The notes under the pieces were generated by a model, which saw only the letters and a list, made by a program, of their open reading frames with translations, did not search any database and had not been told where the DNA came from. 32,000 nt of DNA from Nitrososphaera viennensis EN76 (GTDB lineage Archaea; Thermoproteota; Nitrososphaeria; Nitrososphaerales; Nitrososphaeraceae): positions 2,010,001 through 2,042,000 of the forward strand of contig NZ_CP007536.1 in the NCBI RefSeq assembly GCF_000698785.1. The letters are read 5' to 3'. Made by a program: the position numbers and the translations under genes. The first letter of the stretch is position 1; each line of letters starts with the position of its first letter. Shown piece by piece: positions 3,178 through 31,981 of this stretch.

Positions 3178-3189
3178 TTTTAGTAATTT
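3178..3189 (+). promoter_or_regulatory. TATA-like box for the copy-2 operon (possibly a leaderless transcript)
   Basis: ttttagtaattt is centred ~25 nt upstream of the ATG at 3207 in an AT-rich spacer. Confidence 0.3.
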
Positions 3190-3206
3190 GAATAGCTTGC
3201 ATCAAG

Positions 3207-4118: not shown

Positions 4119-4124
4119 CTCGAA

Positions 4125-4919: not shown

Positions 4920-4925
4920 CACACA

Positions 4926-8404: not shown

Positions 8405-8406
8405 CG

Positions 8407-10591: not shown

Positions 10592-10624
10592 TCCTCTTTT
10601 TCTTCTTCTCCTTCCTTTTTCTCT
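10592..10624 (+). terminator. 33-nt uninterrupted polypyrimidine (C/T) tract 3' of 10345..10578
   Basis: tcctctttttcttcttctccttcctttttctct begins 14 nt after the stop. It includes T5 runs typical of archaeal termination signals. Confidence 0.4.
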
Positions 10625-11027: not shown

Positions 11028-11120
11028 CTTTTTCTGTCTTATCGCCTCTAGTTCGTCGTCGTCGCCTGCTGCTGACACGCCGCCTTCATTCCCAGATTGC
11101 GCTATTATTCCTTTGGGCGG

Positions 11121-11135
11121 AAAATAATTATTATT
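11121..11135. promoter_or_regulatory. A/T-rich TATA-like element between divergent trx and grpE
   Basis: aaaataattattatt is the only AT-rich patch in the 95-145 nt divergent spacer. It lies ~45-50 nt from either start. Confidence 0.3.
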
Positions 11136-11172
11136 CAACGGCACCGGTAATGGCCGGTGACATATACACCGT

Positions 11173-11748
11173 ATGGTGGCTACAGCAGCAACAGACGATG
11201 ATACTGAGGAAGCGCAACAGCAGATCGACGAGACCGAGGAGCTGAGAAAAGAGCTGGCGGCCGCAAAAGAGGCGGCAGAGGGCAACCTCAACAAGCTAAA
11301 GTACCTCATGGCCGACTTTGATAACTACCGCAAGCAGATGGAAAAGCACGCCGCTTCGAGGGTCGAGACGATAAAGGCAGAACTGCTGCTGAAATTCCTC
11401 AACATCCGCGACGACTACCAGCGCGCCATCGAGGGTGCAAGGCAGAAAAAGAGCGAGCCGGCGGTCATCGAGGGCCTCGAGGGCATACTCAAGAACATCG
11501 ACTCGCTCCTCTCGTCTGAGGGCGTGAGGCCTATTGAGGCGGTGGGGACGCCGTTTGACCCAAACGTGCACGACGCAATCGCGTTCTCGCCGAGGGAAGA
11601 CGCAGAAGAGAACACCGTCACCGCCGAGATCAGGCGCGGCTATATGCTAAACGGCAAGGTTCTCCGCCCGAGCATGGTGGAAATCGCAAGAAAGATAGTT
11701 AAAAATAGCGATAGCGCCAATAACGGTGGCGCAGGAGGAGAGGAATAA
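11173..11748 (+). CDS. grpE: Nucleotide exchange factor GrpE
   Basis: Coiled-coil N-terminus, LKYLMADFDNYRKQMEK, and a C-terminal beta domain (FDPNVHDAIA...RGYMLNGKVLRPSMVEI). It sits immediately upstream of dnaK. Confidence 0.9.
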   Translation: MVATAATDDDTEEAQQQIDETEELRKELAAAKEAAEGNLNKLKYLMADFDNYRKQMEKHAASRVETIKAELLLKFLNIRDDYQRAIEGARQKKSEPAVIEGLEGILKNIDSLLSSEGVRPIEAVGTPFDPNVHDAIAFSPREDAEENTVTAEIRRGYMLNGKVLRPSMVEIARKIVKNSDSANNGGAGGEE

Positions 11749-13590: not shown

Positions 13591-13640
13591 TGATTATGAT
13601 GATGGTGATGCGGCTCGGACGTCCCGGTGACCCTGCATGA
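13590..13640 (+). other. 16-codon Met-rich mini-ORF that exactly bridges the dnaK stop and the dnaJ start
   Basis: The ATG overlaps the dnaK TAA (taATG). Translation is [16 protein letters not shown]. Its TGA overlaps the dnaJ ATG (ATGA). The same atgattatgatgatggtgatg run gives four extra TGA codons in the dnaK frame. Confidence 0.3.
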
Positions 13641-14758
13641 GCAAAAGAAGGGACTATTACGAGGTCCTCGGCGTCCCAAAGGCGGCAAGCAAGGACGACA
13701 TCAAGAACGCCTACCGCAAGCTTGCCTTGCAGTACCACCCTGACCGCAACAAGGACGCAGGCGCGGAGGAAAGGTTCAAGGAGATCTCTGAAGCCTACGC
13801 GGTCCTTTCCGACGACGAAAAGCGCAAGCGCTACGACACGTACGGCCACGTGGGAGCTGACGAGGCGTTCCGCGGCTCGGAGGCCAACTTTGAGGAGGTT
13901 TTCCGCGACATGGGCTTTGGAGGATTCAGGGACATTTTCGAGCAGTTCTTTGGCCGGGGCGGCGGCTTTGGCTTTGGACCAGGAGGCGCAGCAGACATGT
14001 TTGGCTTTGGCAGGCGCAAGGGGCGCGACCTTGTCTATGACATGGAGCTTTCGCTTGAGGACGTGCTGCGGGGCAAAAAAGAGGAAGTGGAGGTTCCAAG
14101 GCTTGACAGGTGCAGCGAGTGCGGCGGCTCTGGCGCGGCGCCGGGGACAAAGGCGCGCAGGTGCACCGTCTGTGACGGCAGGGGGCAGGTACAGCGCGTG
14201 TACGGCCAGAACCGGTTTTTCACATCCGTGACGGTCGAGCCGTGCAGGACGTGCCAGGGCAGGGGCCAGATAATCGAGCGCCCGTGCAATGTGTGCAAGG
14301 GCTCTGGCAAGATGCAAAAAATGAAGAAATTGAAAATAGAGATACCACCGGGCGTCGAGGACGGCATGGCGATGCAGCTGAGGGGCGAAGGCGAAGCGTC
14401 CGAGTCGGGGATACCCGGCGACTTTGTGGTGCGCCTGCACGTCAAGCCGCACCAGCAGTTTGAGCGCCTGGAAGACGGCCACCTGCTCTACAGGCTGGAC
14501 GTCAAGTACACCGACCTTGCGCTTGGCACCGAGGTGCGGGTCCCGACTCTTGACGGCACGGAAAAACTGAAAATCCCGCAGGGAACGCAGCCTGAAGGGC
14601 TCTTGCGGCTAAAGGGCAAGGGGCTCCCGCGCTATGGCGCGTCGGGCAAGGGCGACATGGTGGTAAAGCTGAACGTCAAGGTGCCCACCAAATTGTCGGA
14701 CAGGCAAAAGTCGCTCCTGAAGGAGCTTGACAGGGCGCTTGACGACGGCGAAAAGTGA
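13637..14758 (+). CDS. dnaJ: Hsp40 co-chaperone DnaJ
   Basis: J-domain with HPD (YYEVLGV...QYHPDRN), a G/F-rich linker, and four CxxCxGxG zinc motifs. Confidence 0.96.
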
Positions 14759-14763
14759 AATGC

Positions 14764-14778
14764 TTTAATAGAAATTTT
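14764..14778 (+). promoter_or_regulatory. TATA-like box upstream of hsp20
   Basis: tttaatagaaatttt is centred ~35 nt upstream of the ATG at 14805. Confidence 0.3.
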
Positions 14779-14804
14779 GCTATCTTACCGGCGGATACAG
14801 AGAT

Positions 14805-15386
14805 ATGTCATCCCCCTTTGATGAATGGTTTTCCAAGCGGCGGAGAGCGTGGTTTCCGGATGTCGACGAGATGATGCGCGACATGGACAAGATGATGGCA
14901 GAAGCTTTCAAGAACTTTGAAAAGCAGGTCCCAAAGAACCTTGTCCGGGAGCGCAAGCTGGACGACGGCTCGACTGTCCGCGAGATGGGGCCCATAGTCT
15001 ACGGTTATTCTGTCAAGATAGGGCCGGACGGCAAGCCGCAGGTGCGCAAGTTCGGCAACATCGACGCGTTCCCGAACCTCCTTGGCGGCGGACTTGCGGT
15101 CAAGGAAGAGCGCGAGCCCCTTGTGGACGTGATAAAGGGCTCTGACGACGTGCGCGTCGTTGCGGAACTTCCAGGCGTCAACAAGGACGACCTGCGCCTG
15201 TCAGCCGACGAGAACTCGGTCACCATCGAGTCGTTGACGGGCGAGCCGCGCTACCGTAAGGTGGTGGACCTTCCAGAGCCGGTGGATCCCAAGACCGCCA
15301 AGTCGACGTACAAGAACGGCGTGCTTGAAGTCACGCTGAAACTTCGGAAAAAGTCAGGCTCGGGCGTCTCTATCCATATAGACTAG
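14805..15386 (+). CDS. hsp20: Small heat-shock protein, Hsp20/alpha-crystallin family
   Basis: Alpha-crystallin domain: PLVDVIKGSDDVRVVAELPGVNKDDLRL...YKNGVLEVTLKL. Confidence 0.9.
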   Translation: MSSPFDEWFSKRRRAWFPDVDEMMRDMDKMMAEAFKNFEKQVPKNLVRERKLDDGSTVREMGPIVYGYSVKIGPDGKPQVRKFGNIDAFPNLLGGGLAVKEEREPLVDVIKGSDDVRVVAELPGVNKDDLRLSADENSVTIESLTGEPRYRKVVDLPEPVDPKTAKSTYKNGVLEVTLKLRKKSGSGVSIHID

Positions 15387-16310: not shown

Positions 16311-16454
16311 CTAATCGTTGTGCTCAATCCCCAGACTTTTGATGTACCTCGCGAACTCATCATGGTTCTCGATCCTGTAATAACCCATGACCTTTCTAAT
16401 CGTTGGTTCGTCAATACTGATCGAGCTTATTTTGATCTCGTTTTGTTCTGTCAT
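16311..16454 (-). CDS. 47-aa ORF translationally coupled (ATGA) to the oxidoreductase gene; below the ORF-track cutoff
   Basis: MTEQNEIKISSISIDEPTIRKVMGYYRIENHDEFARYIKSLGIEHND. Its ATG (16454-16452) overlaps the TGA of 16451..17500. Confidence 0.3.
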   Translation of the reverse strand: MTEQNEIKISSISIDEPTIRKVMGYYRIENHDEFARYIKSLGIEHND

Positions 16455-17500
16455 TTTGTGCCAACCTCAATTTCGCGCAGCGCAGGCGCGACATGCGTGC
16501 CTAACAATTCGATAGCTCGCATCAACTTTTCGTGAGATAATGACCCTGGATCCATCTGAAAAGTAACGCGGGATATGCCGCCAAGTGCCTTGCTGTGCTG
16601 GATTATCTTCTTGACCACCTCATCCGGATCACCGATTATCAGTGCACCCTTTGGCCCTAGCTGGGCATCAAAGCTAGCGCGCGTGACTGGACGCCAACCA
16701 CGCTCCTTGCCAAATTTGTTCATAGTCCGCACATAACCTGGATAAAAGTCATCGACTGCCTCTTGCGTCGTTTCCGCGACATAGCCCAGTGAATGCAAGC
16801 CTACCTTTAATTGATCAGGTGGATGTCCGGCTCTCCTGCCAGCTTCCCTGTAAAGGTCAATGAGTGGCCGGAATTGGTGAGTTTCGCCGCCTATGACTGC
16901 AACGGCCAATGGAAGTCCAAGCACTCCGGCACGGACGAATGATTCCGGCGTTCCACCAACGCCTACCCATATCGGCAATGGATTCTGCAAGGGCCTTGGA
17001 TAGACTCCCTGTCCAGTCAGGGGAGGCCGGTATTCTCCAGACCAGCGGACATGCTCGTTGTCACGTATCTTTAACAACAGGTCAAGCTTTTCTTCAAAAA
17101 GCGAGTCGTAATCTTCCAGTCGGAAGCCAAACAAGGGAAATGCCTCGATAGACGAGCCACGACCCACAACCATCTCTGCCCTACCCCGCGACAAAAGATC
17201 AAGGGTTGCAAATTCTTGAAACACTCGTACAGGGTCGGCTGCACTCAGTACCGTTACGGCACTGGTGAGCCTTATACTGTTTGTTCTTACGGCCGCCGCT
17301 GCTAGGATGACAGCAGGAGCCGAATCGAGGAATTCCCTGCGGTGGTGTTCACCAATACCAAATACGTCCAACCCAACCTGATCGGCATGTTCAATTAGTT
17401 TTACCAAGTTCTGCAAACGCTCTGATGGGCTAACCACCGCTTGGCTCGCCTCATCAAATGATGCAAAGCTGTCAATTCCAACTTCAATCTTTGAAACCAT
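16451..17500 (-). CDS. Luciferase-like (LLM class) flavin/F420-dependent oxidoreductase
   Basis: LIEHADQVGLDVFGIGEHH...LTSAVTVLSAADPVRVFQEFATLDLLSRGRAEMVVGRGS is typical of the bacterial luciferase-like monooxygenase family. Confidence 0.8.
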   Translation of the reverse strand: MVSKIEVGIDSFASFDEASQAVVSPSERLQNLVKLIEHADQVGLDVFGIGEHHRREFLDSAPAVILAAAAVRTNSIRLTSAVTVLSAADPVRVFQEFATLDLLSRGRAEMVVGRGSSIEAFPLFGFRLEDYDSLFEEKLDLLLKIRDNEHVRWSGEYRPPLTGQGVYPRPLQNPLPIWVGVGGTPESFVRAGVLGLPLAVAVIGGETHQFRPLIDLYREAGRRAGHPPDQLKVGLHSLGYVAETTQEAVDDFYPGYVRTMNKFGKERGWRPVTRASFDAQLGPKGALIIGDPDEVVKKIIQHSKALGGISRVTFQMDPGSLSHEKLMRAIELLGTHVAPALREIEVGTK

Positions 17501-17992: not shown

Positions 17993-18065
17993 TTTGCAAT
18001 GTCTGCGGTTGGTCACGATCGCCGAGCGTAATCAATCGAAGTAGATCAGACAGAACCATCATCAA

Positions 18066-18100
18066 TGAAAAAGAAAATGCGGAGACACAATAGAGTCTCC
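18066..18100 (-). terminator. Hairpin plus T-run 3' of the membrane-protein gene
   Basis: ggagac (18081-86) pairs with gtctcc (18095-100) and overlaps the stop codon. On the minus strand it is followed by gcattttctttttc. Confidence 0.4.
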
Positions 18101-18663
18101 TAGGGGATTGACCGGCTGTACAGCTTGCCTTCGAGTGCCAGTTTGTACATCTCCGCCACATGCGGGTTCCTTGCAGGCATCTCTGAGCCCAGTTCAACAA
18201 GCCTCGCATAGACCCTCACAAGGTATGCCAGCGACCCTATGAGTGCCAGGAATATTCCCATGTTGAAGATCCAGTGCGGAGGGACTGCGAATATCTCTTC
18301 TACGAACCAAAAGTGCCACAGTTCGTTCACTCCAATTGCAAACATCGACGCCGTGTACCCGATAATTGCCATCTTGAGACCTGTGTTCAGCGCGTTTCCC
18401 GGTCCCCTCATGATGGGAACCCGCCTGTCATATATCGCTATTATGCCCCATCCCAAGGGCAATGCTATCAAGGTGCTATACAGCCACCAGTTTGCAGGAG
18501 TGAATGCAGAGTCGCGAATAATCGTCTGGTTCAGAGAGGTGTCCACAAAATAGCCTAGTTCGGCGGAGGCCATCACAGAGATCATGACGATGATCATTAT
18601 GTAGATCCGCTTCAATCTCTGGATTTCAAGCTCTTTTGGTATCAGGGAAGGAATCTGAGCCAT
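18100..18663 (-). CDS. Integral membrane protein of unknown function (~5 predicted TM helices)
   Basis: Repeated hydrophobic ~20-aa stretches: IMIIVMISVMASAELGYFV, WWLYSTLIALPLGWGIIAIY, MAIIGYTASMFAIGV, IFNMGIFLALIGSLAYLV. Confidence 0.6.
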   Translation of the reverse strand: MAQIPSLIPKELEIQRLKRIYIMIIVMISVMASAELGYFVDTSLNQTIIRDSAFTPANWWLYSTLIALPLGWGIIAIYDRRVPIMRGPGNALNTGLKMAIIGYTASMFAIGVNELWHFWFVEEIFAVPPHWIFNMGIFLALIGSLAYLVRVYARLVELGSEMPARNPHVAEMYKLALEGKLYSRSIP

Positions 18664-21903: not shown

Positions 21904-22098
21904 TCAGACAACAACGCTGCTGCTGTCTGCAGAAGGAGGGTGGACGTGGGTCGAGTCGTCAACGCTGCCGCAATTCCTGCAGTGCCATCTGAAAGGCTCC
22001 TGACAAAACCTGCAGGTCCGAGTCACCGAAAAAGCATGGCCGCACGCCCTGCAGCTGGCCTTGTTGTAGCTTGTAGTCGTTATCATTGCTGTTGTCAT
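21904..22098 (-). CDS. Cys-rich mini-protein (three CxxC pairs plus HxH), zinc-ribbon-like
   Basis: SCRACGHAFSVTRTCRFCQEPFRWHCRNCGSVDDSTHVH. Its ATG overlaps the upstream stop (ATGA at 22095-22098). The opposite-strand 140-aa ORF is Arg/Ala-rich and typical of an antisense artefact. Confidence 0.5.
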   Translation of the reverse strand: MTTAMITTTSYNKASCRACGHAFSVTRTCRFCQEPFRWHCRNCGSVDDSTHVHPPSADSSSVVV

Positions 22099-22391
22099 GC
22101 TGCGTGGCCGGCGCGGCTTTTCGCCCTGCCTTCAGGCGTGAATTCCAGCACCACTCCACTGTTGGCACTGTAGTCAAACGTGTATCTCTCGTTGGGCGAT
22201 ATTGGCATGCCTTCCACCGCTGCTGCGTTGCACGACGGGCAGCTGCCTGCCGCAAAGCCGGGATCGAGGCAGGACGCGCACCAAAAGCATTCGTTGCAGA
22301 TCAGAAATCGCGCTTGCCTTGTTGCACTCCTTTCCGGTTTTGCCAATAGATCAAGCATGGCATTTTTTTTGCATTCAAGGGATTTATTCAC
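22095..22391 (-). CDS. Cys-rich small protein (C-x2-C-x2-C-x2-C ... C-x2-C) of unknown function
   Basis: FLICNECFWCASCLDPGFAAGSCPSC is followed by a beta-rich segment ERYTFDYSANSGVVLEF. It starts 53 nt downstream of the comA-like gene on the same strand. Confidence 0.5.
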   Translation of the reverse strand: MNKSLECKKNAMLDLLAKPERSATRQARFLICNECFWCASCLDPGFAAGSCPSCNAAAVEGMPISPNERYTFDYSANSGVVLEFTPEGRAKSRAGHAA

Positions 22392-22444: not shown

Positions 22445-23431
22445 CTATAGCCACACCGACTGCACCGGCGCGTACATCTTTTTCCTTGCGTCGTCAAGGC
22501 TGCTGCGCTCTATTATCAAGCCCTGGCTCTTGAGGTCCTCGACCGCGCTCTGGACAGTCCTCCTTGGCAGGCGGCTCATCTCCATCAGCTCCACCTGGTC
22601 TATCGGGTGCTTTGACTTTATTATGAAATAGACGAATTTGGCCGCCGGCCCTCCCTCCGGGTCCTTGCGCAGGTACGACACGCCAAACGACGCCTTGGAT
22701 GGAAAGCCCCTCCTCTGCGACTCTATCGACGACACCGCGTCGATGTGGATCTCGGCAAGGTTGACGCGCTGGCCAAACTCTGCCAGGAGCGCCGACTGCT
22801 GGTGCTCAAGGGGAGCCTCGAAGATGAACGTGGTCGGCGGGTACTTGGCCGTGAGCGCCCCGACGGAATTCCATCTCACCGCGCCCTTTTCGTCGTATAT
22901 GCCGACGCTGACGCCCTCGTTTGCCTCAAGCACCACCTTGTCAGAGCCCAGCTTGACTGCATCCTCCACCTTGGCTATGGTCGCGTCGATGGAGAGCTGG
23001 TGCCGGGGGTCCTTCTTGCCCACCTTCCACTGGAAATCAAGGTTCCTTGCCAGGATCGTGTCGGTCAGCTTTTTCTTTTGCTCAAACGTCAAGTCGATGC
23101 CGTTTTCGCCTATCTCGATGATGTCAAATCCGACCCTTGCCGCGTCGCCCACAAACTTGTCAAACGCGTTTTCAGACACCATGTACTCGGAGATGGTGCT
23201 CCCGGTAGACACCTTGACGCCGAGGTCCTGGTAGAATTTTATCTTTTTTTGCAGCACGGGCTCGGAAAGCAGGAGCGGCAGGACGCCATAGATCTTGACT
23301 GCGTCGATAAACGGCGCAAGCGCCTCAAAGTTCTCCTTGTCGAGCCCTTGCAGCTTGTCTATCACGTACGTCCTGCCCTCCTTGCGGGGCTTTTTGACGT
23401 CGACCCTGTTCTTTACATAGCTCTCTAGCAA
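22445..23431 (-). CDS. comA: Phosphosulfolactate synthase (ComA) family domain fused to a C-terminal winged-helix DNA-binding domain
   Basis: ComA-like blocks: KPRKEGRTYVIDK, IDAVKIYG, GFDIIEIGENGIDL, VVLEANEGVSVGIYDEKG, FIFEAPLEHQQSALLAEFGQRVNLAEI. Then ~80 extra aa follow: IDQVELMEMSRLPRRTVQSAVEDLKSQGLIIERS..DDARKKMYAP (MarR/ArsR-style wHTH). TTG start. Confidence 0.75.
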   Translation of the reverse strand: MLESYVKNRVDVKKPRKEGRTYVIDKLQGLDKENFEALAPFIDAVKIYGVLPLLLSEPVLQKKIKFYQDLGVKVSTGSTISEYMVSENAFDKFVGDAARVGFDIIEIGENGIDLTFEQKKKLTDTILARNLDFQWKVGKKDPRHQLSIDATIAKVEDAVKLGSDKVVLEANEGVSVGIYDEKGAVRWNSVGALTAKYPPTTFIFEAPLEHQQSALLAEFGQRVNLAEIHIDAVSSIESQRRGFPSKASFGVSYLRKDPEGGPAAKFVYFIIKSKHPIDQVELMEMSRLPRRTVQSAVEDLKSQGLIIERSSLDDARKKMYAPVQSVWL

Positions 23432-23587
23432 TTCCGATAATGTATATGCAAGATGTGCGCCTATTTTGAACTTGTGAACTGTGCGGATCCTGCACTTTTT
23501 CCCCGGATTCTACCGTGAACCTGCGCCTTTCTTGCATTTTTTGCATCGTTGCCAGCAGTATTAACCCGTCCGGGACAGGGAAAAGGC

Positions 23588-24682
23588 ATGAACAACAAGA
23601 TCAAGTTCGGAATAGCTGCGGCCATAATAGTCGCAGTCATTGCCACTTCCGTACCCCTTGTTCTGGGATCGCAAGCGGCCAAGTCTGATTCAGCTCAAGG
23701 TCAGGCGGCAGCTTCTCAGCAACAACAGCAGCAGGAATCAAAGGTGCTCAGGATCGGGTACTTTCCAAACATCAACCACGCGCAGGCGGTGATAGGGCTT
23801 GGAAATGGCGACTTTCAAAAGGCGCTTGGGAGCAACGTCGAGGTCAAGACGCAGGTGTTCAACGCCGGGCCGTCTGCCATAGAGGCCCTCTTTGCAAAGC
23901 AGGTCGACATAACCTACATCGGGCCAAACCCGGCGATAAACGGGTACGTCAAGTCTGACGGGCAGGGGCTGCGGATCGTGTCCGGGGCCGCTAGCGGGGG
24001 CGCGGTGTTTGTGGTGCGGAACGACTCTGGCATAAACTCGCCGGCGGATTTTGCAGGCAAAAAGTTTGCGTCGCCGCAGCTTGGCAACACGCAGGACGTG
24101 GCGCTGCGCAAGTACCTGCTTGAAAACGGCTACAAGACGAAGGAAAACGGCGGAAACGTCGAGGTCATTCCTGCTGCAAACGCAGACATCCTCGCGCTCT
24201 TTTTGAAAAAAGAGATTGACGGCGCATGGGTGCCTGAGCCCTGGGGAGCCAAGCTTGTCAAGGAGGGCGGCGGACGCATATTCCTTGACGAGCGGGACCG
24301 GTGGCCCGGCGGCCAGTTCGTCACGGCGCACATCATCGTCAGCACCGACTATCTGAAGAACAACCCTGATGTCGTCAAGAAGGTGATTGCGGCCAACGTG
24401 GACGAGACAAAGTGGATTAACGATCACCCTGATGAGGCGCTCAAGGTGTACAACGCGGAGCTGAAAAAGCTGACCGGCAAGACCATACCTGAAGACGAGT
24501 ACAAGGCCGGCACCTCAAGGCTGACGCTCACGTACGACCCTGTGAAGGACTCGCTCTTCCAGTCTGCAAGCGACGCGCACGACATCGGCTTTTTGAAGGA
24601 AAACCCGGACCTTTCCGGAATATACGACCTGACGCTGCTGAACGAGGTGCTCGGGGAGAAGGGGCTGCAGCAGATAAGCTGA
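23588..24682 (+). CDS. ABC transporter substrate-binding protein, NitT/TauT (aliphatic sulfonate/nitrate/taurine, NMT1-like) family
   Basis: The ATG at 23588 gives MNNKIKFGIAAAIIVAVIATSV (signal anchor) and a Q-rich linker. Then LRIGYFPNINHAQAVIG...IEALFAKQVDITYIGPNPAING...SPQLGNTQDVALRKYL, which is SsuA/TauA-like. Confidence 0.8.
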   Translation: MNNKIKFGIAAAIIVAVIATSVPLVLGSQAAKSDSAQGQAAASQQQQQQESKVLRIGYFPNINHAQAVIGLGNGDFQKALGSNVEVKTQVFNAGPSAIEALFAKQVDITYIGPNPAINGYVKSDGQGLRIVSGAASGGAVFVVRNDSGINSPADFAGKKFASPQLGNTQDVALRKYLLENGYKTKENGGNVEVIPAANADILALFLKKEIDGAWVPEPWGAKLVKEGGGRIFLDERDRWPGGQFVTAHIIVSTDYLKNNPDVVKKVIAANVDETKWINDHPDEALKVYNAELKKLTGKTIPEDEYKAGTSRLTLTYDPVKDSLFQSASDAHDIGFLKENPDLSGIYDLTLLNEVLGEKGLQQIS

Positions 24683-24750: not shown

Positions 24751-24896
24751 ATTTATTCCCACCATGAAATTCCAGCATCTGACGCCAGACTGCCCTTGAA
24801 ATGTATGCAATGATCATGCCAAAACTGCATAAATGATGCCACAGTTGCACCTTTGAAGTGGGTTATATCCGATGCATCCATGTCTCTGTTCCATAT

Positions 24897-25751
24897 ATGT
24901 CTCTGAACGAACAACCACCGCAGGAGCAGAAAGAAGAAGACCATCATCATCGCCACAACAATGTTGTCCTGGAACTGAGGGACGTCTCCAAGGCATTCTC
25001 GCATGAAGGCAGGGCGGACCGGCACAGGGTGCTTGACAGGATCAACCTTGACGTGAAACAAGGGGAATTTGTCACGATAGTGGGGCCGTCTGGATGCGGC
25101 AAGAGCACGCTTTTGAGCATCGTGGCCGGCCTTGACGCGCCCGACTCGGGCCTGGTTTCAGTCAGGGGAGAAAGCAGCAGCGGCGGAGGAAGAAAGGCGC
25201 AGAGGGTCGTGATATTCCAGGAAGGCGCGCTGTTCCCGTGGCTCACCGTTTCTGACAACGTCGAGTTCGGGCTGAAGGTGGCCGGCGTCCCAAAGGAGTC
25301 AAGAAAGGCGGCGGCAAGCCGCTTTATCGAGATGGTGCAGCTGACAAAGTTTGCGGGCTCGTACGTCTACCAGCTGTCCGGCGGCATGAAGCAGCGCGTG
25401 GCAATAGCGCGCGCCCTTGCGCTTGACCCGCAGGTCCTGCTCATGGACGAGCCCTTTGCCGCGCTCGACGTGCAGACCCGGGACATACTGCACGAGCAGC
25501 TGTTGCAGATCCACCAGTCGACCGGCAAGACCGTACTGTTCGTCACGCACAACATCAATGAAGCGGTGCTGCTGGGCGACAGGATAATCGTGCTCTCGCC
25601 AAGGACGGGAAACATCAAGAAAGAGATCGTAGTCGACCGCCCGAGGCCCCGGGACATCGAGAGCCACGAAATAAGCGCGATCCGCAGGGAGCTTTTGCGG
25701 GAGCTGGAGGAGGACTTTCAAATTGCAAGAAGCCACAGTCGGCAAGGCTAG
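24897..25751 (+). CDS. ABC transporter ATP-binding protein (SsuB/TauB/NrtD-like)
   Basis: Walker A GPSGCGKST, signature LSGGMKQR, Walker B LLMDEPFAALD. The start is uncertain: ATG 24897 is chosen, and GTG 24858 is in the ORF track. Confidence 0.9.
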   Translation: MSLNEQPPQEQKEEDHHHRHNNVVLELRDVSKAFSHEGRADRHRVLDRINLDVKQGEFVTIVGPSGCGKSTLLSIVAGLDAPDSGLVSVRGESSSGGGRKAQRVVIFQEGALFPWLTVSDNVEFGLKVAGVPKESRKAAASRFIEMVQLTKFAGSYVYQLSGGMKQRVAIARALALDPQVLLMDEPFAALDVQTRDILHEQLLQIHQSTGKTVLFVTHNINEAVLLGDRIIVLSPRTGNIKKEIVVDRPRPRDIESHEISAIRRELLRELEEDFQIARSHSRQG

Positions 25752-26556
25752 CAACAGCATTATCAAGAAGACAAAAAGCCGGTTCGACACCACGGACGCG
25801 GCAAACGCCTTTCTGTTCATTGCCGCGTTCATCGGCGTCTGGCAGCTTGTCTTTTCGCTAGGGATATGGCCCAAGGTCCTGATGCCCTCGCCGGCAATGG
25901 TGGCGCAGACTATAGCCGGCCTGGTGGCAGACTCTTCCCTGACGGTGGGAATGGGAGTCACGATGTGGAGGCTGTTTGCAGGGTTTGCGATATCTGTGGG
26001 CATCGGCGGGGCGGTGGGGCTTGCGATGGTCAAGTTCCCAAGCTTTGGCAAGACCCTCAGCTCGTTTGCAGTGGGCCTGCTCACCTTTCCAAGCATTGCC
26101 TGGGTGCCGTTTTCGATACTGCTCATCGGCTTTAACGACTTTGGCATACTCTTTGTGCTTGTCATGGCCTCGGTGTTTTCGGTGATGATATCCACCTACA
26201 GCTCGATCCGCAACATCCCTCCCCTCTACATCAGGGCCGCAAAAAACATGGGCGCAAGCGGCTTTTCGCTGTTCAGGTATGTCATGATACCGGCCGCCAC
26301 TCCTTCATTGATGATCGGGCTCAGGCAGGCATGGTCGTTTGCGTGGCACGCCCTGATAGGCGCCGAGATACTGATAACTACCCTGTACGGGCTTGGCCAT
26401 GTGCTCCACATAGGCAGGGAGTTCCAGGACATGGGGCAGATAATCGCCGTCATGATCGCGATCTTTGCCATCGGCCTGCTCTTTGACCGGCTGGTGTTCA
26501 TGAAGCTGGAAGAGAAGGTCCGGGCAAGGTGGGGCCTGGACCAGCACAGCCAGTGA
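25723..26556 (+). CDS. ABC transporter permease (SsuC/TauC-like)
   Basis: Six hydrophobic segments in a BPD-transporter-type layout. The TTG start overlaps the ATPase gene by 29 nt, so the start is uncertain. Confidence 0.8.
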   Translation: MQEATVGKASNSIIKKTKSRFDTTDAANAFLFIAAFIGVWQLVFSLGIWPKVLMPSPAMVAQTIAGLVADSSLTVGMGVTMWRLFAGFAISVGIGGAVGLAMVKFPSFGKTLSSFAVGLLTFPSIAWVPFSILLIGFNDFGILFVLVMASVFSVMISTYSSIRNIPPLYIRAAKNMGASGFSLFRYVMIPAATPSLMIGLRQAWSFAWHALIGAEILITTLYGLGHVLHIGREFQDMGQIIAVMIAIFAIGLLFDRLVFMKLEEKVRARWGLDQHSQ

Positions 26557-26607: not shown

Positions 26608-27447
26608 ATGAATTCCAAGTCCGCTGCCAAGATAGGCGGCATAGCGGCCATAGCGGCCGCAGTCGCCGTCGCGGTATGGATTGGCACGCAACAGAGCGAC
26701 AGCGCGCAAAGCAACGTCAGCATGCTTGGAACCGGTACAGATGTATCAAAAGTCGAGACTTCTACGGTCGAATATTACAACAACACGTCGGGATTTCTTG
26801 CCAAGCCGGCAGGCGATGGCAGGTACCCCGGCATCGTCATGATCCACGAGTGGTGGGGGCTGAACGACAACATCAAGGACATGGCCCGGCAGATGGCGTC
26901 GGAAGGGTACGTCGTGCTTGCGGCAGACCTGTACAAGGGGCAGGTGGCAACGGAGAGCTCGCAGGCGCAGCCGCTTGCCGCAGGCGTTCGGAACAACCCT
27001 GGCGAGGCGGTAAAGAACGTGCAGGCCGCGGTCAGCTACCTGCGCAACAGCGACTCTGTCGGAGGCAACAAGGTGGGATCGCTTGGGTGGTGCTTTGGCG
27101 GCGACTGGTCGCTCCAGCTTGCGCTGAACGAAAAGATGGACGCGACCGGAATATACTACGGCAGGCTCGTCACCGATCCAGAGGCGCTGTCCGTGATAAA
27201 GTGGCCGGTGCTCGGCGTCTTTGGAAGCGCGGACCAGTCGATACCTGTGGAGCAGGTAAACGCGTTCAAGCAGGCGCTTGACAAGAACGGCATAGAAAAC
27301 GAGGTCTACATATACGAGGGCGTGGGGCACGCGTTTGCAAACCCGTCAGGGGCCAACTATGCGCCGGAGGAGACAAAGGACGCGTGGCAAAAGACGCTTG
27401 CGTTCTTTGACAAGCACCTGAAGGGCGAAGAAGTAACAGCAGCCTAG
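26608..27447 (+). CDS. Dienelactone hydrolase family protein with an N-terminal signal anchor
   Basis: PGIVMIHEWWGLNDNIKDMARQMASEGYVVLAADLY, a nucleophile motif GWCFGG, and a C-terminal GVGHAF. Confidence 0.85.
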   Translation: MNSKSAAKIGGIAAIAAAVAVAVWIGTQQSDSAQSNVSMLGTGTDVSKVETSTVEYYNNTSGFLAKPAGDGRYPGIVMIHEWWGLNDNIKDMARQMASEGYVVLAADLYKGQVATESSQAQPLAAGVRNNPGEAVKNVQAAVSYLRNSDSVGGNKVGSLGWCFGGDWSLQLALNEKMDATGIYYGRLVTDPEALSVIKWPVLGVFGSADQSIPVEQVNAFKQALDKNGIENEVYIYEGVGHAFANPSGANYAPEETKDAWQKTLAFFDKHLKGEEVTAA

Positions 27448-28295
27448 GGCACTACTACTATTATCGTGCCCTTCATCCCCTCCTCTGAGTGGATGGTGCA
27501 GTGGTACTCAAACACGCCCTTTTCGGCAAACTTGTACTGGAACGACTCGTTGCGGCTGAAAAACCCGCTGTCTATGTTATTGATGGTCTGCCCTGACTCT
27601 GTCTTGTACGTGCCCACCACGTTGTGGGGGATGTTCGACTCGTTTATCCACTTTACCGTCGAGCCGGCCTGCGTTATCGCAGCGTCGGGCATGTACATGT
27701 TCATACCGCCGTACACGATGTCCTTGCGCAGGGTGTTCGACATCACCCGCTCGTTTTCGTTTGCTATGCTGTTTACCTTTTGCCTGTCCATGTCGACAAA
27801 CACGTTCCATATCTGCTGGCGCGACTCGCCCTGCTTGCCTGCAATCGCGGTAAAACTTTCGGCGTCTGTATAGGGCCTGCCGCCGACAAGCTGCCAGTTT
27901 GCGGTGATCATCACCTGCCCTGCGCCGCTGTGCGTCACCTTGCCGCCAGGGTCGACAAACGCTGTAGGCTGCACTGCTGCAATCGTGACTGCGCTGCCCC
28001 TTGTCTGCGCAAGTATGTCCTGGACCCTGGAATCCTTCTCGGCTATCTCCCACGCCTGCTTGGCCACGTCGTTTATGGCATAGATGTACGTGTTGTCGCC
28101 TGTGGTAGGCTCCTTGATGACTATGTTTTCGGTCTTGAGCGTTATGTTGGAAAGCGCGTTGAAATCCTTGGCCTTTTCTTCCGGCAAGAGGCCGGATGAC
28201 ATGAGTATTACGCCACCGGTTACAAAAACCGCCACGACGCTGGCCATTATCAGGAGCTCCTTTTTCACGCCGCAATTACTGTTGCCATAATTCAT
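27444..28295 (-). CDS. Membrane-anchored blue (type 1) copper protein, plastocyanin/cupredoxin-like C-terminal domain
   Basis: The C-terminal TVKWINESNIPHNV...YHCTIHSEEGMKGTIIVV supplies His...Cys-x2-His-x4-Met ligands. There is an N-terminal TM helix. Confidence 0.8.
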   Translation of the reverse strand: MNYGNSNCGVKKELLIMASVVAVFVTGGVILMSSGLLPEEKAKDFNALSNITLKTENIVIKEPTTGDNTYIYAINDVAKQAWEIAEKDSRVQDILAQTRGSAVTIAAVQPTAFVDPGGKVTHSGAGQVMITANWQLVGGRPYTDAESFTAIAGKQGESRQQIWNVFVDMDRQKVNSIANENERVMSNTLRKDIVYGGMNMYMPDAAITQAGSTVKWINESNIPHNVVGTYKTESGQTINNIDSGFFSRNESFQYKFAEKGVFEYHCTIHSEEGMKGTIIVVVP

Positions 28296-30337: not shown

Positions 30338-31981
30338 TTATTCCATTCCCATGCCGCCCATTCCGCCCATGCCGCCACCCATACCTCCACCGCCCGGCGG
30401 CATTGCTGGCATCTTGGACTTGCTTGCGGCAATCACGTCGTCGATCCTGAGGATCATCGACGCGACCTCTGTTGCAGACTTGATTATCTGCTGCTTTACT
30501 ACCAGTGGCTCCAGCACGTTCTGCTTGTACATGTCGGCGACCACGGTGTTCCTTGCGTCGACTCCTGTCCATTTGCTTCCCTTGCTCTGCTTGGCGCGAA
30601 GTTCCGTCATTGTGTCTATCGGGTCCATGCCGGCGTTCTCGGCCAGGTTGAGCGGGATCGCGTCAAGGGCGTCTGCAAACTTCTGCACTGCAAGCTGGGC
30701 GCGGCCTTCCTGGCTTGAAGACCACTGGCGCAGCTCGTTTGCGATGTAGGCTTCCGGGGCACCTCCGCCTGCCACGATGGCCGGCTTTTCAAGGACGTCC
30801 TTCATGACCATGAGAGCGTCATGCAATGATCTATCTGCTTCGTCCACGACCCTCTGCGAGCCTCCGCGGATGAGGATGGTGACTGCCTTGGGGTTCTTGC
30901 ACCCTTCGATGAACACCCACTTGTCCGTCTCTACCTTGCGCTCCTCCACAAGCTCGGCAGAGCCAAGGTCCTTTGACGTCAGGTCGTCAAGGTTGTTGAC
31001 GATCCTTGCGCCTGTCGCGCGGGACATTTTCGTCATGTCGCTTTCCTTGACCCTGCGCACCGCAAGCACTCCTGCCTTTGCAAGGTAGTGCTGGGCGATG
31101 TCGTCAATGCCTTTCTGGCAGAGCACGACGTTTGCGCCGGAGCTCTTGACCTTGTCAACCATCGCCTTTAGCATCCTGTTCTCCTCTTCGAGGAACATCT
31201 GCATCTGGTGCGGGTCGGAGATGCGTATCTCTGCGCTCATCTCTGTCTTTTCGATTTCAAGGGCCGAGTTGACGAGCGCAATCTTGGCTCCCTCTATGCG
31301 CTTTGGCATGCCTGCGTGCACGACTTCCTTGTCAAGGACTATGCCCTTGATGAGTTTCGTGTCGCGCATCGAGCCTCCTGCCTTCTTTTCCACCTTGATG
31401 TTGTCAAGGTCGACTCTCAGGCTGCCGTTTTCTGCCTTCTCTGCGACCTGCTTTGCCGCGTCGGCCACTATCGCCCCAAGGAGCGGGCTGTCGTCGGACA
31501 CAAGCTTTGAGTCCATGCTGGTCCTTGCAATCTTTAGGAGCATGTCCTTGTCAGAGATGTCTACCTGCACTGCCATCTTTTCCAAAAGCTTTAGCGCCTG
31601 TTCTGCTGCCGCGTTGTAGCCATCTACGATTACGGACGGGTGCACGTCCTTGTTCAGGAGGTCCTCTGCCTTTTCAAGCAGTGCGCCGGCAAACACCACC
31701 GAAGACGTGGTGCCGTCGCCGACCTCGTTGTCGACCGACTTGGCAACTTCGACCATCATCTTGGCCGCCGGATGCTGCACGTCTATTTCCTTCAAGATGG
31801 TGGCGCCGTCGTTTGTTATGGTCACGTCGCCAAGGTTGTCCACCAGCATCTTGTCCATGCCGCGCGGGCCAAGGCTCGTCTTCACTATCTCTGCGATCAG
31901 CTTTGCCGCTGTCAGGTTGTTCTTCTGCGCTTCGCGTCCCTTGCTTTCCTTAGTCCCTTCCTTCAGGATTAAGACTGGCAT
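30338..31981 (-). CDS. ths: Thermosome subunit (group II chaperonin)
   Basis: LGPRGMDKMLVD, ITNDGATILKEIDVQHPAAKMMVE, VAGGGAPE, and a C-terminal GGM repeat tail. Confidence 0.97.
   Translation of the reverse strand: MPVLILKEGTKESKGREAQKNNLTAAKLIAEIVKTSLGPRGMDKMLVDNLGDVTITNDGATILKEIDVQHPAAKMMVEVAKSVDNEVGDGTTSSVVFAGALLEKAEDLLNKDVHPSVIVDGYNAAAEQALKLLEKMAVQVDISDKDMLLKIARTSMDSKLVSDDSPLLGAIVADAAKQVAEKAENGSLRVDLDNIKVEKKAGGSMRDTKLIKGIVLDKEVVHAGMPKRIEGAKIALVNSALEIEKTEMSAEIRISDPHQMQMFLEEENRMLKAMVDKVKSSGANVVLCQKGIDDIAQHYLAKAGVLAVRRVKESDMTKMSRATGARIVNNLDDLTSKDLGSAELVEERKVETDKWVFIEGCKNPKAVTILIRGGSQRVVDEADRSLHDALMVMKDVLEKPAIVAGGGAPEAYIANELRQWSSSQEGRAQLAVQKFADALDAIPLNLAENAGMDPIDTMTELRAKQSKGSKWTGVDARNTVVADMYKQNVLEPLVVKQQIIKSATEVASMILRIDDVIAASKSKMPAMPPGGGGMGGGMGGMGGMGME

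What the first reader, a model, noticed from the sequence alone, without database searches (positions are those of the whole stretch)
22445..23587. Phosphosulfolactate synthase domain fused to a winged-helix domain, divergent from a sulfonate-type ABC transporter: a possible enzyme-derived one-component regulator
The first ~245 aa match the ComA ((2R)-phospho-3-sulfolactate synthase) family, whose members are normally ~250 aa stand-alone enzymes. Here ~80 further residues form a MarR/ArsR-like wHTH: ELMEMSRLPRRTVQSAVEDLKSQGLIIERS. The gene is transcribed divergently, across a 156-nt spacer, from an SsuA/TauA-type binding protein, ATPase and permease. Both sides therefore relate to organosulfonate or sulfite chemistry. 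The fusion could be a bifunctional enzyme-repressor, or a ComA fold recruited as a ligand sensor controlling sulfonate uptake. The spacer contains three (T/G)TGAAC hexamers at 23467, 23474 and 23515 and the near-repeat ggatcctgcac/ggattctaccg. These are weak operator candidates.
Basis: partly seen in the sequence, partly recalled or inferred. Interest (0 to 1): 0.65.

Follow-up and report, generated by a model that had tools for sequence, protein, structure and literature searches.

The report
ComA-barrel winged-helix sulfur regulator candidate
A soil ammonia-oxidising archaeon carries a gene that joins a copy of a sulfite-using enzyme to a DNA-binding domain, beside a sulfonate-type uptake system and palindromic DNA sites, so it is probably an undescribed sulfur-related gene switch.

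Summary
Window 22445-23431 (-) encodes one 328-aa protein. It has a ComA-type (beta/alpha)8 barrel (residues 13-243, Pfam E 1e-63), a disordered linker, and a MarR-like winged helix (residues 262-322).

It is not a frameshift or mis-assembly. More than 1,000 homologues share the architecture across Nitrososphaerales, and about 18 clusters at 50% identity extend it to Thermoplasmata.

Among 80 genomic loci, 51 carry SsuA/B/C-type genes within 6 kb. In 35 they are adjacent, in several different arrangements. Distant family members sit beside cysH-sat, a YeeE-type sulfur transporter or a rhodanese.

The conserved element is the palindrome ATATGCA-N5-TGCATAT. It overlaps the gene's own TATA box, recurs twice more in the spacer, and is enriched 11.5-fold upstream of these genes.

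In this clade, residues near-invariant in stand-alone ComA are replaced (E133K, R170N, G75S, S105G, N227E). The replacements are themselves conserved.

The most likely reading is an enzyme-derived, ligand-sensing regulator that autoregulates and controls the divergent transporter. No paper describes it. Ligand, DNA binding and loss of catalysis are all inferred, not shown.

The parts
22445..23431 (-). Gene for the 328-aa ComA-barrel plus winged-helix fusion protein (TTG start, stop codon included)
   Evidence: ORF. Domains. Full-length homologues. AlphaFold2 model with mean pLDDT 87.
22703..23395 (-). ComA-type (beta/alpha)8 barrel, residues 13-243. Pocket signature: K46-x-Y-G-x-x-P, G77-S-T, E106-I-G-E-N, K136-V-G-K-K140, E169-A-N171-E-G, E205, E227, R240.
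   Evidence: Pfam PF02679 E 1.1e-63. Foldseek 1QWG target TM 0.86. NCBIfam equivalog TIGR03849 scores 159.9 bits, below its cut-off of 280. Residue comparison with 71 stand-alone ComA sequences. Conservation across 83 Nitrososphaerales copies.
22649..22702 (-). Linker, residues 244-261, predicted disordered around residues 247-255
   Evidence: pLDDT below 50 for residues 247-255. Length and sequence vary among relatives.
22466..22648 (-). Winged helix-turn-helix, residues 262-322. The recognition helix RRTVQSAVEDLKS is residues 290-302 (22526-22564). The wing hairpin is residues 306-322.
   Evidence: Secondary structure. Foldseek hits to MarR, SlyA, AdcR, ZitR and MepR DNA-binding domains, query TM about 0.8. 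Profile hits against the PDB. R291 and L300 are invariant, and L288 and T292 near-invariant, across the family.
23444..23462 (-). O1: palindromic site AGGCGCACATCTTGCATAT (strict core 23447-23459). It abuts the gene's own TATA box and lies 28 nt before the start codon.
   Evidence: The consensus of 24 distinct loci is aAATAT-aYGCA-aAttc-TGCATATATc.
23460..23473 (-). Putative BRE/TATA of the fusion gene (AAGTTCAAAATAGG).
   Evidence: Conserved block in orthologous spacers. Assignment as a TATA box is an inference from sequence and position.
23482..23494 (-). O2: TGCAGGATCCGCA, the central site of the spacer
   Evidence: Partly conserved in orthologues, for example TGCAGAATCCGCA in L003 and L005 and TGCAAGAACTGCA in L049.
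23522..23545 (+). O3 cluster: TGCG-N7-TGCA-N5-TGCA (strict core 23533-23545), about 22 nt upstream of the ssuA TATA centre. It is the inverted counterpart of O1.
   Evidence: Inverted repeats I1 and I4. ATGCA-N5-TGCA is conserved at a fixed distance from the ssuA TATA in 10 orthologous spacers.
23557..23565 (+). Putative TATA box of ssuA (AGTATTAAC). It lies about 23-31 nt before the ATG at 23588, so the transcript probably has little or no leader.
   Evidence: Conserved TTAATA(C/T) block. The promoter assignment is inferred.
23588..24682 (+). SsuA-family substrate-binding protein of a NitT/TauT-type ABC transporter
   Evidence: TIGR01728 at 210.5 bits against a cut-off of 163.5, and Pfam NMT1_2. 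The ATG at 23588 is supported by the conserved N-terminus MNNKIKFGIAAAII.
24858..25751 (+). ABC transporter ATPase. This is the ORF as listed; the real start is probably the ATG at 24897.
   Evidence: Pfam ABC_tran. The best NCBIfam hits are the SaoA and taurine ATPase models, both below their cut-offs.
25723..26556 (+). ABC transporter permease (SsuC/SaoP-like)
   Evidence: Pfam BPD_transp_1. NCBIfam SaoP and SsuC hits below their cut-offs.
22095..22391 (-). Possible partner: 98-aa Cys-rich ORF, 53 nt downstream on the same strand. Whether it belongs to the system is uncertain.
   Evidence: No family hit. tblastn homologues lie within 6 kb of the fusion gene in 17 of 80 loci.

Best explanation
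The gene encodes a one-component transcription factor made from an enzyme fold.

Sensor. The N-terminal ComA-type barrel serves as the ligand-sensing module. Its pocket still looks functional, but several residues that stand-alone phosphosulfolactate synthases keep are replaced. In this clade it probably binds a sulfur-related anion (sulfite, a sulfonate or a sulfolactate-like compound) rather than making phosphosulfolactate for coenzyme M.

DNA binding. The C-terminal MarR-like winged helix binds the palindrome ATATGCA-N5-TGCATAT.

Predicted regulation:
- One copy (O1) overlaps the gene's own TATA box and transcription start. Occupancy should therefore block TBP/TFB/RNA polymerase and autorepress the gene.
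- Two further copies (O2, O3) lie in the same 156-nt spacer. O3 sits at a conserved distance upstream of the TATA box of the divergent ssuABC-like operon. Occupancy of O3 should switch that transporter on or off according to ligand.

Status of each step:
- Shown here: the architecture, its conservation, the gene linkage, and the conserved palindromes with their positions.
- Inferred: DNA binding, the sign of regulation, the ligand, and loss of catalysis.
For: 1. Two-domain architecture. The ComA barrel and the MarR-like wHTH are both predicted with high confidence.
2. Selection. The architecture is kept in more than 1,000 proteins, in 80 loci, and in about 18 clusters at 50% identity. The wHTH is as conserved as the barrel, with mean column conservation 0.74 against 0.73. 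R291 is invariant in the recognition helix and T292 nearly so.
3. Linkage to sulfur acquisition.
- SsuA/B/C homologues lie within 6 kb in 51 of 80 loci and are adjacent in 35, in at least five different arrangements.
- Genomes with two paralogues have each one next to its own transporter: L001 and L041, L003 and L042.
- Distant Thermoplasmata members are divergent from cysH-sat (L088, and L083 with sat). Another lineage sits beside AhpC and a YeeE-type Sulf_transp gene (L081, L087). L076 has a rhodanese upstream.
4. Cis-element.
- YGCA-N5-YGCA occurs at three places within 100 bp of the spacer, against about 20 distinct places in all 32 kb.
- Only one other site in the window is intergenic.
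- Across loci its density is 3.68 per kb in the 160 nt upstream of these genes, against 0.32 per kb elsewhere.
- It sits at a fixed place, 23-31 nt before the start codon and fused to the TATA box, in 24 distinct promoter sequences (23 loci plus the window). Their proteins are only 55-88% identical to this one, and the flanking DNA cannot otherwise be aligned between clades.
- The ssuA-proximal site keeps its distance to the ssuA TATA in orthologues.
5. Pocket.
- Of about 36 positions that are at least 85% conserved in 71 stand-alone ComA sequences, this protein differs at G47V, G75S, S105G, G107N, E133K, R170N, N227E and R244P (M. jannaschii numbering).
- Most of these lie at or just after the C-terminal ends of barrel strands in the model.
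- The replacement residues S78, E109, K136, N171 and E227 are conserved in 73-83 of 83 clade members.
- The NCBIfam equivalog model for archaeal ComA scores 159.9 bits against a cut-off of 280.
6. No ComB or ComC gene was found among the 30 larger window ORFs scanned.
Against: - No experiment supports any step. DNA binding, the ligand and the regulatory sign are all inferred.
- For this particular sequence the wHTH scores below Pfam gathering thresholds.
- 29 of 80 loci show no ssu gene within the fetched flanks. Of these, 23 have more than 2.5 kb on at least one side, so linkage is frequent but not universal.
- Upstream of ssuA genes that are not divergent from the regulator, the strict motif is only 2.3-fold enriched, in 5 of 25 regions.
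- Many catalytic-looking residues are retained: D20, D40, K43, E79, E103, K137, E168, E205, Q212 and R240. Residual or altered catalysis therefore cannot be excluded.
- I could not read the ComA structure paper, so the roles of E133 and R170 are not verified.
- M. jannaschii ComA is a homotrimer (PMC13397543). A trimer fits awkwardly with a two-fold symmetric operator.
Confidence: 0.58

Rival explanations
1. Bifunctional enzyme-regulator, as in BirA, RbkR or PutA. The barrel still catalyses addition of sulfite to PEP, or a related sulfonate-forming or sulfonate-cleaving reaction. Its substrate or product acts as co-regulator for the winged helix, tying transporter expression to flux through the enzyme.
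For: Many residues conserved in ComA are retained, including K137, E103, E168, E205 and R240. The barrel is under purifying selection. Distant fusion members keep the canonical E133 and R170 (EVGKK, EGRE.G). Some of these lie divergent from cysH-sat, which supplies sulfite. [quoted passage not shown] That shows a metabolic reason for a ComA gene to lie beside sulfate-activation genes.
Against: In the Nitrososphaerales clade, five to eight near-invariant ComA positions are replaced. The archaeal ComA equivalog model fails its cut-off. No ComB or ComC gene lies nearby. No coenzyme M-dependent enzyme is known in ammonia-oxidising archaea (my own knowledge, not tested here).
Confidence: 0.22
2. 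An enzyme with a non-DNA-binding accessory winged helix. The C-terminal domain would mediate oligomerisation or protein contacts, as winged-helix domains do in RNA polymerase III subunit RPC6. The neighbouring transporter would simply supply the enzyme's substrate.
For: The best sequence-profile hit of the C-terminal domain is the RPC6/RPC39 winged-helix domain. The wHTH scores below Pfam cut-offs for this protein.
Against: A palindrome is conserved at a fixed promoter position upstream of these genes in many clades. This is hard to explain without a sequence-specific DNA binder encoded in cis. The best structural matches are DNA-binding MarR-family domains, some solved with DNA. The recognition-helix motif (P/K)RRTVQ is the most conserved part of the domain.
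Confidence: 0.08
3. A regulator, but not of sulfur uptake. The NitT/TauT-type transporter may carry a non-sulfur solute such as nitrate, bicarbonate, cyanate or a thiamine pyrimidine. The ComA-like pocket would then sense that solute or a central metabolite such as PEP.
For: NitT/TauT binding proteins cannot be assigned a substrate from sequence alone. The ATPase and permease fall below all NCBIfam equivalog cut-offs. Some family members have no sulfur gene nearby: L082, L085, L086 and L084, and the marine L090 beside an aminotransferase.
Against: The binding protein passes the SsuA_fam cut-off. Independent lineages of the fusion sit beside other sulfur genes: cysH-sat, YeeE-type Sulf_transp, and rhodanese.
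Confidence: 0.1

Closest known systems
Phosphosulfolactate synthase ComA (M. jannaschii MJ0255, PDB 1QWG; B. subtilis YitD, PDB 1U83)
   Same: Same Pfam family and the same predicted (beta/alpha)8 fold, about 33% identity over 230 residues. Many conserved pocket residues are kept.
   Different: It carries an extra linker of about 20 residues and a 66-residue winged helix. It fails the archaeal ComA equivalog cut-off. E133K, R170N, G75S, S105G and N227E replace near-invariant residues. There is no comB or comC context, and the host is an aerobic ammonia oxidiser not known to use coenzyme M (the host point is my own knowledge).
Archaeal enzyme-derived regulators ThiR (ThiN domain plus DNA-binding domain) and RbkR (riboflavin kinase plus wHTH); bacterial BirA, NadR, NrtR and PutA (all from my own knowledge)
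   Same: One polypeptide joins a metabolic-enzyme fold to a DNA-binding domain. The gene lies beside genes of the related pathway or transporter. Palindromic operators occur in its own or the target promoters.
   Different: The sensor fold here is a ComA TIM barrel, which I found described nowhere as a regulator. The DNA-binding domain is C-terminal. The parent enzyme is a homotrimer, unlike the dimeric parents of most such regulators.
MarR/SlyA/AdcR-type and TrmB-type winged-helix regulators
   Same: The same wHTH topology with the best structural matches (query TM about 0.8). Palindromic operators that overlap core promoter elements.
   Different: It lacks the N- and C-terminal helices that form the MarR dimer and its ligand site. 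It also lacks the TrmB sugar-binding domain. Oligomerisation and ligand sensing must come from the barrel.
Bacterial sulfur-starvation regulators CysB, Cbl and SsuR (LysR type), which control ssuEADCB and tauABCD (from my own knowledge)
   Same: A regulator gene associated with sulfonate-type ABC transporter genes. The expected logic is a response to sulfur status.
   Different: No homology. The DNA-binding and sensor folds are different, and it works on an archaeal TBP/TFB promoter.

Membership tests
ComA, phosphosulfolactate synthase (PF02679 / TIGR03849) | Sequence matches the Pfam family model above its gathering score | tested here: met
   215.4 bits against a cut-off of 25.2, residues 13-243.
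ComA, phosphosulfolactate synthase (PF02679 / TIGR03849) | Passes the NCBIfam equivalog model for archaeal ComA (same function) | tested here: not met
   159.9 bits against a cut-off of 280.
ComA, phosphosulfolactate synthase (PF02679 / TIGR03849) | (beta/alpha)8 barrel like 1QWG | tested here: met
   AlphaFold2 model with pLDDT above 90 over most of the barrel. Foldseek 1QWG E 9.5e-22, target TM 0.86. This is a prediction only.
ComA, phosphosulfolactate synthase (PF02679 / TIGR03849) | Full set of residues near-invariant in stand-alone enzymes (presumed active site) | tested here: not met
   Eight of about 36 positions differ, including E133K (99% E in stand-alone ComA), G75S (100% G), S105G (96% S), N227E (94% N) and R170N (89% R). 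The replacements are conserved within the clade.
ComA, phosphosulfolactate synthase (PF02679 / TIGR03849) | Catalyses addition of sulfite to PEP, Mg2+-dependent | not testable with these tools
   Needs an enzyme assay.
ComA, phosphosulfolactate synthase (PF02679 / TIGR03849) | Homotrimer with active sites at subunit interfaces | not tested
   The trimeric state of 1QWG is taken from PMC13397543. No multimer prediction was available.
ComA, phosphosulfolactate synthase (PF02679 / TIGR03849) | Pathway context (comB, comC, comDE) | tested here: not met
   None among the 30 window ORFs scanned. Whole genomes could not be searched.
MarR-family regulators | Winged helix-turn-helix DNA-binding fold | tested here: met
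   Predicted H262-274, H279-286, H290-302 and hairpin 306-322. Best Foldseek hits are SlyA, AdcR, ZitR, MarR and MepR.
MarR-family regulators | Pfam MarR or MarR_2 above the gathering score | tested here: not met
   MarR_2 scores 23.2 bits against 27 for this protein. 19 of 25 relatives match at E no greater than 0.01.
MarR-family regulators | Flanking N- and C-terminal helices that form the dimer interface and ligand pocket | tested here: not met
   The domain is only about 66 residues and ends at the wing. It is preceded by a disordered linker and the barrel.
Enzyme-derived one-component regulators (BirA, RbkR, ThiR kind) | Enzyme-family domain and DNA-binding domain in one conserved polypeptide | tested here: met
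Enzyme-derived one-component regulators (BirA, RbkR, ThiR kind) | Recurrent linkage to genes chemically related to the enzyme | tested here: met
   ssuABC-type genes in 51 of 80 loci. cysH-sat, YeeE-type and rhodanese genes in other lineages.
Enzyme-derived one-component regulators (BirA, RbkR, ThiR kind) | Conserved palindromic operator in its own or target promoters | tested here: met
   ATATGCA-N5-TGCATAT. 11.5-fold enrichment and a fixed position at the TATA box.
Enzyme-derived one-component regulators (BirA, RbkR, ThiR kind) | Ligand-dependent DNA binding | not testable with these tools
   Needs EMSA or footprinting with candidate ligands.

The most novel reading that the evidence does not exclude
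ComA-barrel/winged-helix proteins are the missing sulfur-status transcription factors of archaea, in Nitrososphaeria and Thermoplasmatota. Ancestral members would be BirA-like: they make phosphosulfolactate from sulfite and PEP and use it, or sulfite, as co-regulator of cysH-sat. The Nitrososphaerales clade would have turned into pseudoenzyme sensors, duplicated alongside individual sulfonate-type transporters. Because the parent fold is a trimer, the active form may be a trimer or a hexamer whose three or six winged helices bridge the three palindromes of the divergent promoter. That architecture is not known for any winged-helix regulator.
Probability: 0.25. Interest if true: 0.8.

Novelty: new variant of a known kind. 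Interest (0 to 1): 0.62.

Why it matters
How archaea sense sulfur supply and control sulfate or sulfonate acquisition is largely unknown. They have no counterpart of bacterial CysB, Cbl or SsuR (my own knowledge).

This family offers a concrete candidate that can be tested directly. It comes with a predicted operator, predicted target genes and a short list of candidate ligands. It occurs in soil ammonia oxidisers that matter for the nitrogen cycle.

It would add a TIM-barrel enzyme (ComA) to the set of folds recruited as sensor domains. It also raises a structural question: how can a trimeric scaffold read two-fold symmetric DNA?

On the practical side, more than a thousand database entries named 'phosphosulfolactate synthase' are probably misnamed. 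They could wrongly suggest coenzyme M or sulfolactate synthesis in these archaea.

Tried and rejected
1. TTGAAC at 23466-23471 is part of the conserved AAGTTCAAAATA promoter core. The other two hexamers and the near-repeat are not conserved in orthologous spacers.

2. Frameshift or mis-assembly. Rejected: the ORF is continuous, and homologues are 328 aa in many independent assemblies, including the complete N. gargensis genome.

3. A structured RNA or riboswitch in the spacer. No Rfam family reaches its gathering score anywhere in the window.

4. TGCA-N5-TGCA as a general promoter feature. Within the 32-kb window, only one other strict site is intergenic (17995-18007). The rest lie inside ORFs. 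The site at 8475, which matches the consensus well, lies inside a repeat-protein ORF and was treated as chance.

5. Extending the regulon to ssuA genes that are not divergent from the regulator. The strict motif is only weakly enriched there, at 0.75 against 0.32 per kb. My start-codon calls for those genes were unreliable.

6. An operator shared with Thermoplasmata relatives. L088 has a different perfect palindrome, TGCGTAAT-T-ATTACGCA, and L083 has ATGCGCAT. They are similar in flavour but cannot be aligned with the Nitrososphaera site.

7. Literature. Searches combining phosphosulfolactate or ComA with winged helix, Nitrososphaera, Thaumarchaeota, PF02679 or COG1809 found nothing on this fusion. 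The ComA structure paper (JBC 2003) is not held, so the roles of individual active-site residues are unverified. A search for ThiR was uninformative.

8. Loci without ssu genes were checked for other neighbours. Most were unrelated: lyase, NUDIX, cupin, Cdc6 and a transposase. L076 has a rhodanese.
Full report
**What is there**

The window comes from a Nitrososphaera-type ammonia-oxidising archaeon. The closest named homologues are from Nitrososphaera (N. gargensis 86% identity), and an amoC-like gene lies at 18100-18663.

The ORF at 22445-23431 (-) encodes 328 aa from a TTG start. Residues 13-243 match Pfam ComA at E 1.1e-63. The best solved relative is M. jannaschii phosphosulfolactate synthase 1QWG (phmmer E 1e-32).

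An AlphaFold2 model built on a 25-sequence alignment has mean pLDDT 87. It shows three parts:
- an eight-stranded barrel;
- a disordered stretch at residues 247-255;
- a compact C-terminal domain with helices 262-274, 279-286 and 290-302 and a beta-hairpin at 306-322.

The whole model matches 1QWG with target TM 0.86. The C-terminal domain modelled alone has pLDDT 93. Its best structural matches are the DNA-binding domains of SlyA, AdcR, ZitR, MarR and MepR, at query TM about 0.8 and rmsd 1.3-2 A.

By sequence, this protein's winged helix falls just under the Pfam cut-offs (MarR_2 23.2 bits against 27; TrmB 19.4 against 25.6). However, 19 of 25 diverse relatives hit TrmB and MarR_2. A profile of the domain finds RPC6 winged-helix, MarR, Lrp, AdcR and TrmB structures.

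- an SsuA_fam binding protein, which passes the TIGR01728 cut-off;
- an ABC ATPase;
- a permease.

The conserved N-terminus MNNKIKFG places the ssuA start at the ATG at 23588, so the spacer is 156 nt.

**Not an artefact, and widespread**

The word-indexed search found 1,219 relatives, and the best 120 are almost all exactly 328 aa. The species-representative genome collection gave 80 loci. All come from Nitrososphaerales lineages (Nitrososphaera, Nitrosocosmicus, Nitrosopolaris, Nitrosomirales), and nearly all cover the full length.

The C-terminal domain is intact in every complete copy, with the motif GGPxxKF(I/V)Y...LPRRTVQ...L..QGL(I/V)...D.RKK.Y. Several genomes hold two or more paralogues.

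An exhaustive HMMER search of 1.8 billion cluster representatives shows about 18 clusters at 50% identity with the same two-domain layout. These go down to 25-30% identity, alongside the usual 240-290-aa stand-alone ComA proteins.

A profile search names some of the distant fusions as Thermoplasmata, including Lutacidiplasmatales. One AT-rich member occurs in a Tara marine metagenome. All are annotated simply as 'phosphosulfolactate synthase'.

**Gene linkage**

By tblastn, SsuA/B/C homologues lie within the fetched 6-kb flanks in 51 of 80 loci. They are directly adjacent (less than 700 nt) in 35, and 20 share the window's divergent layout. The others are co-directional upstream or downstream. 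A linkage that survives rearrangement argues for function rather than inherited synteny.

In genomes with two paralogues, each sits beside its own transporter (L001 and L041; L003 and L042). Very divergent extra copies, at 38-40% identity, also sit among ssu genes (L058, L074, L078).

Linkage is not universal. 23 loci with usable flanks have no ssu gene. Their neighbours are mostly unrelated, apart from a rhodanese in L076.

Outside the order the sulfur theme returns:
- In L088 the fusion gene is divergent, across 119 nt, from PAPS reductase and ATP sulfurylase. L083 has the same sat neighbour.
- In L081 and L087 it lies between a divergent AhpC gene and a YeeE-type Sulf_transp gene.

Other Thermoplasmata loci (L082, L085, L086, L084) and the marine ones (L089-L091, beside an aminotransferase) show no clear sulfur gene.

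**Cis-elements**

I aligned the spacer with ten orthologous divergent spacers. This shows islands of conservation in otherwise variable DNA:
- a TATA-like block at each end (AAGTTCAAAATA for the fusion gene, TTAATA(C/T) for ssuA);
- repeated (C/T)GCA-N5-(C/T)GCA units between and next to them.

In the window the strict pattern occurs at 23447-23459, 23482-23494 and 23533-23545. A further TGCG half-site lies at 23522. The whole 32-kb window has about 20 distinct sites, and only one other is intergenic.

The tool for inverted repeats independently pairs 23446-23460 with 23523-23537.

Across the 80 loci the strict pattern is 11.5 times denser in the 160 nt upstream of the fusion genes than elsewhere (3.68 against 0.32 per kb). 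In 24 distinct promoter sequences (23 loci plus the window), from clades whose proteins are 55-88% identical to this one, it starts 23-31 nt before the start codon. The consensus there is aAATAT-aYGCA-aAttc-TGCATATATc. This is a 7+5+7 palindrome, ATATGCA-N5-TGCATAT, whose left arm is part of the TATA box.

A palindrome of this size suits a pair of winged helices. Its position over the TATA box and the start site is the classic place for archaeal repressors (established knowledge; not tested here).

The ssuA-proximal site keeps a fixed distance upstream of the ssuA TATA in orthologues. In archaea, sites upstream of BRE/TATA are often activating, as with TrmBL1 and SurR (my own knowledge). I therefore leave the sign of ssuABC control open.

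One is simply part of the promoter core, and the others are not conserved.

**Enzyme or sensor?**

I compared the protein with 71 stand-alone ComA sequences: 70 cluster representatives plus M. jannaschii ComA. About 36 positions are at least 85% conserved among them.

This protein keeps D20, D40, K43, E79, E103, K137, E168, E205, Q212 and R240 (M. jannaschii numbering). It differs at:
- G47V
- G75S (G in 100% of stand-alone sequences)
- S105G (96%)
- G107N
- E133K (99%)
- R170N (89%)
- N227E (94%)
- R244P

Most of these positions lie at or just after the C-terminal ends of barrel strands in the model, which is where TIM-barrel active sites sit.

The new residues are not drift. S78, E109, K136, N171 and E227 are present in 73-83 of 83 Nitrososphaerales copies. 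The barrel is as conserved as the winged helix. The pocket is therefore functional but different.

Further points:
- The archaeal ComA equivalog model fails, at 159.9 bits against a cut-off of 280.
- No ComB or ComC gene was found among the 30 larger window ORFs scanned.
- Distant fusion members mostly keep EVGKK and EGRE.G, so the ancestral fusion may have been catalytically competent.
- The 38-40% paralogues have lost still more of the pocket (DSK, KFNKK, EIDQK).

I could not obtain the 1QWG paper, so I cannot say which replaced residues bind Mg2+, PEP or sulfite.

**Most likely mechanism**

This is a one-component regulator. The ComA-derived barrel binds a sulfur-related anion. Through the flexible linker, that sets how well the winged helices occupy the ATATGCA-N5-TGCATAT sites.

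Occupancy of O1 should autorepress the gene. Occupancy of O3, possibly with O2, should control the divergent ssuABC-like operon.

M. jannaschii ComA is a homotrimer (PMC13397543). If the fusion keeps that state, three or six winged helices would be available for the three palindromes. This is speculation, but it can be tested.

The main rival is a BirA-like bifunctional protein. [quoted passage not shown] These operons include yitD, the B. subtilis ComA homologue (my own knowledge).

**Comparison with what is known, and novelty**

In working principle it resembles ThiR, RbkR, BirA, NadR and NrtR, where an enzyme fold is fused to a DNA-binding domain (my own knowledge). It is not a regular member of the MarR family, because the MarR dimerisation helices are absent. 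By NCBI's equivalog criterion and by residue conservation it is not a bona fide ComA either.

Full-text searches found no description of a ComA-wHTH protein or of its operator.

I rate it a new variant of a known kind. The architecture is visible in databases but uninterpreted. The link to sulfur acquisition, the operator and the pocket remodelling are new inferences.

**Limits**

- Everything functional is inferred.
- The structures are predictions.
- The motif statistics do not correct for shared ancestry among loci, although the flanking DNA cannot be aligned between clades.
- The transporter's substrate is unknown.
- Whole genomes could not be searched for pathway genes or for further operator sites.

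Noticed in passing
window 22095-22391 (-): A 98-aa Cys-rich ORF (CNECFWCASC...CPSCN) lies 53 nt downstream of the fusion gene on the same strand and has no family hit. tblastn homologues at 35-52% identity lie within 6 kb of the fusion gene in 17 of 80 loci, at varying positions. It may be a third partner of the system.
   Followed up: partly
window 21904-22098 (-): A second small zinc-ribbon-like ORF of 64 aa lies directly downstream of the 98-aa one. It scores below threshold for Zn_ribbon_6 and FYVE. Homologues were seen in only two loci (L003, L060).
   Followed up: no
L058 10981-11928, L074 10190-11137, L078 5070-6017: Extra paralogues of the fusion, at 38-40% identity, have a much more degenerate barrel pocket (DSK, KFNKK, EIDQK) but an intact LPRRT(V/I)Q winged helix. 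They lie among ssuA/B/C genes. This looks like stepwise conversion of an enzyme into a pseudoenzyme sensor.
   Followed up: partly
L088 4566-4683; L083 about 6900-7000: In Thermoplasmata relatives the spacer between the fusion gene and cysH-sat carries a perfect 17-bp palindrome, TGCGTAAT-T-ATTACGCA (L088). L083 has ATGCGCAT. These are different from the Nitrososphaera operator but reminiscent of it. In L083 the roughly 900-nt gap between sat and the fusion gene looks like coding sequence, so it may hold an uncalled cysH.
   Followed up: partly
L090 and L091 (marine metagenomes), L089: An AT-rich marine version of the fusion (P0156, P0312) lies divergent from a class I/II aminotransferase, next to an M20 peptidase. 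In L089 it is two genes from a cysteinyl-tRNA synthetase.
   Followed up: no
window 26608-27447 (+): A dienelactone-hydrolase / YghX-like protein with an N-terminal hydrophobic segment starts 52 nt after the permease stop, as if in the same operon. No homologue was found in the 80 related loci.
   Followed up: partly
window 18100-18663 (-) and 16451-17500 (-): An amoC-like gene is followed, after a 600-nt AT-rich gap containing one YGCA-N5-YGCA site (17995-18007), by an Atu2307/SP_0267-family luciferase-like monooxygenase that passes TIGR03858.
   Followed up: no
window 482-6431 (+): A polysaccharide deacetylase gene followed by a family-2 glycosyltransferase (chitin-synthase-like) gene occurs twice in tandem, with a UDP-glucose dehydrogenase-like ORF between the two pairs.
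   Followed up: no
window 6725-8706 (+): A 559-aa ORF and an overlapping 108-aa ORF have no family hit. The latter encodes short Asn/Gly/Ser-rich repeats (NSGN..NS.. units) and contains a consensus-like TGCAGAATCTGCA at 8475-8487, judged to be chance.
   Followed up: partly
Protein representatives P0162, P0173, P0191, P0193, P0196, P0376, P0378 (about 490-526 aa) and P0197, P0254, P0267 (661-966 aa): The ComA family has other fusions. P0376, P0378 and P0382 (487 aa) are ComA+ComB (PF04029). The other proteins of about 490-526 aa were not checked for domains. Some long proteins carry ComA at the C-terminus. None of the other domains were examined.
   Followed up: no
window 27444-28295 (-), 10623-11309 (-), 11752-15386 (+), 30338-31981 (-): Ordinary neighbours: a membrane-anchored plastocyanin-like protein, a thioredoxin-domain protein, a dnaK-dnaJ-hsp20 cluster and a thermosome subunit.
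   Followed up: no
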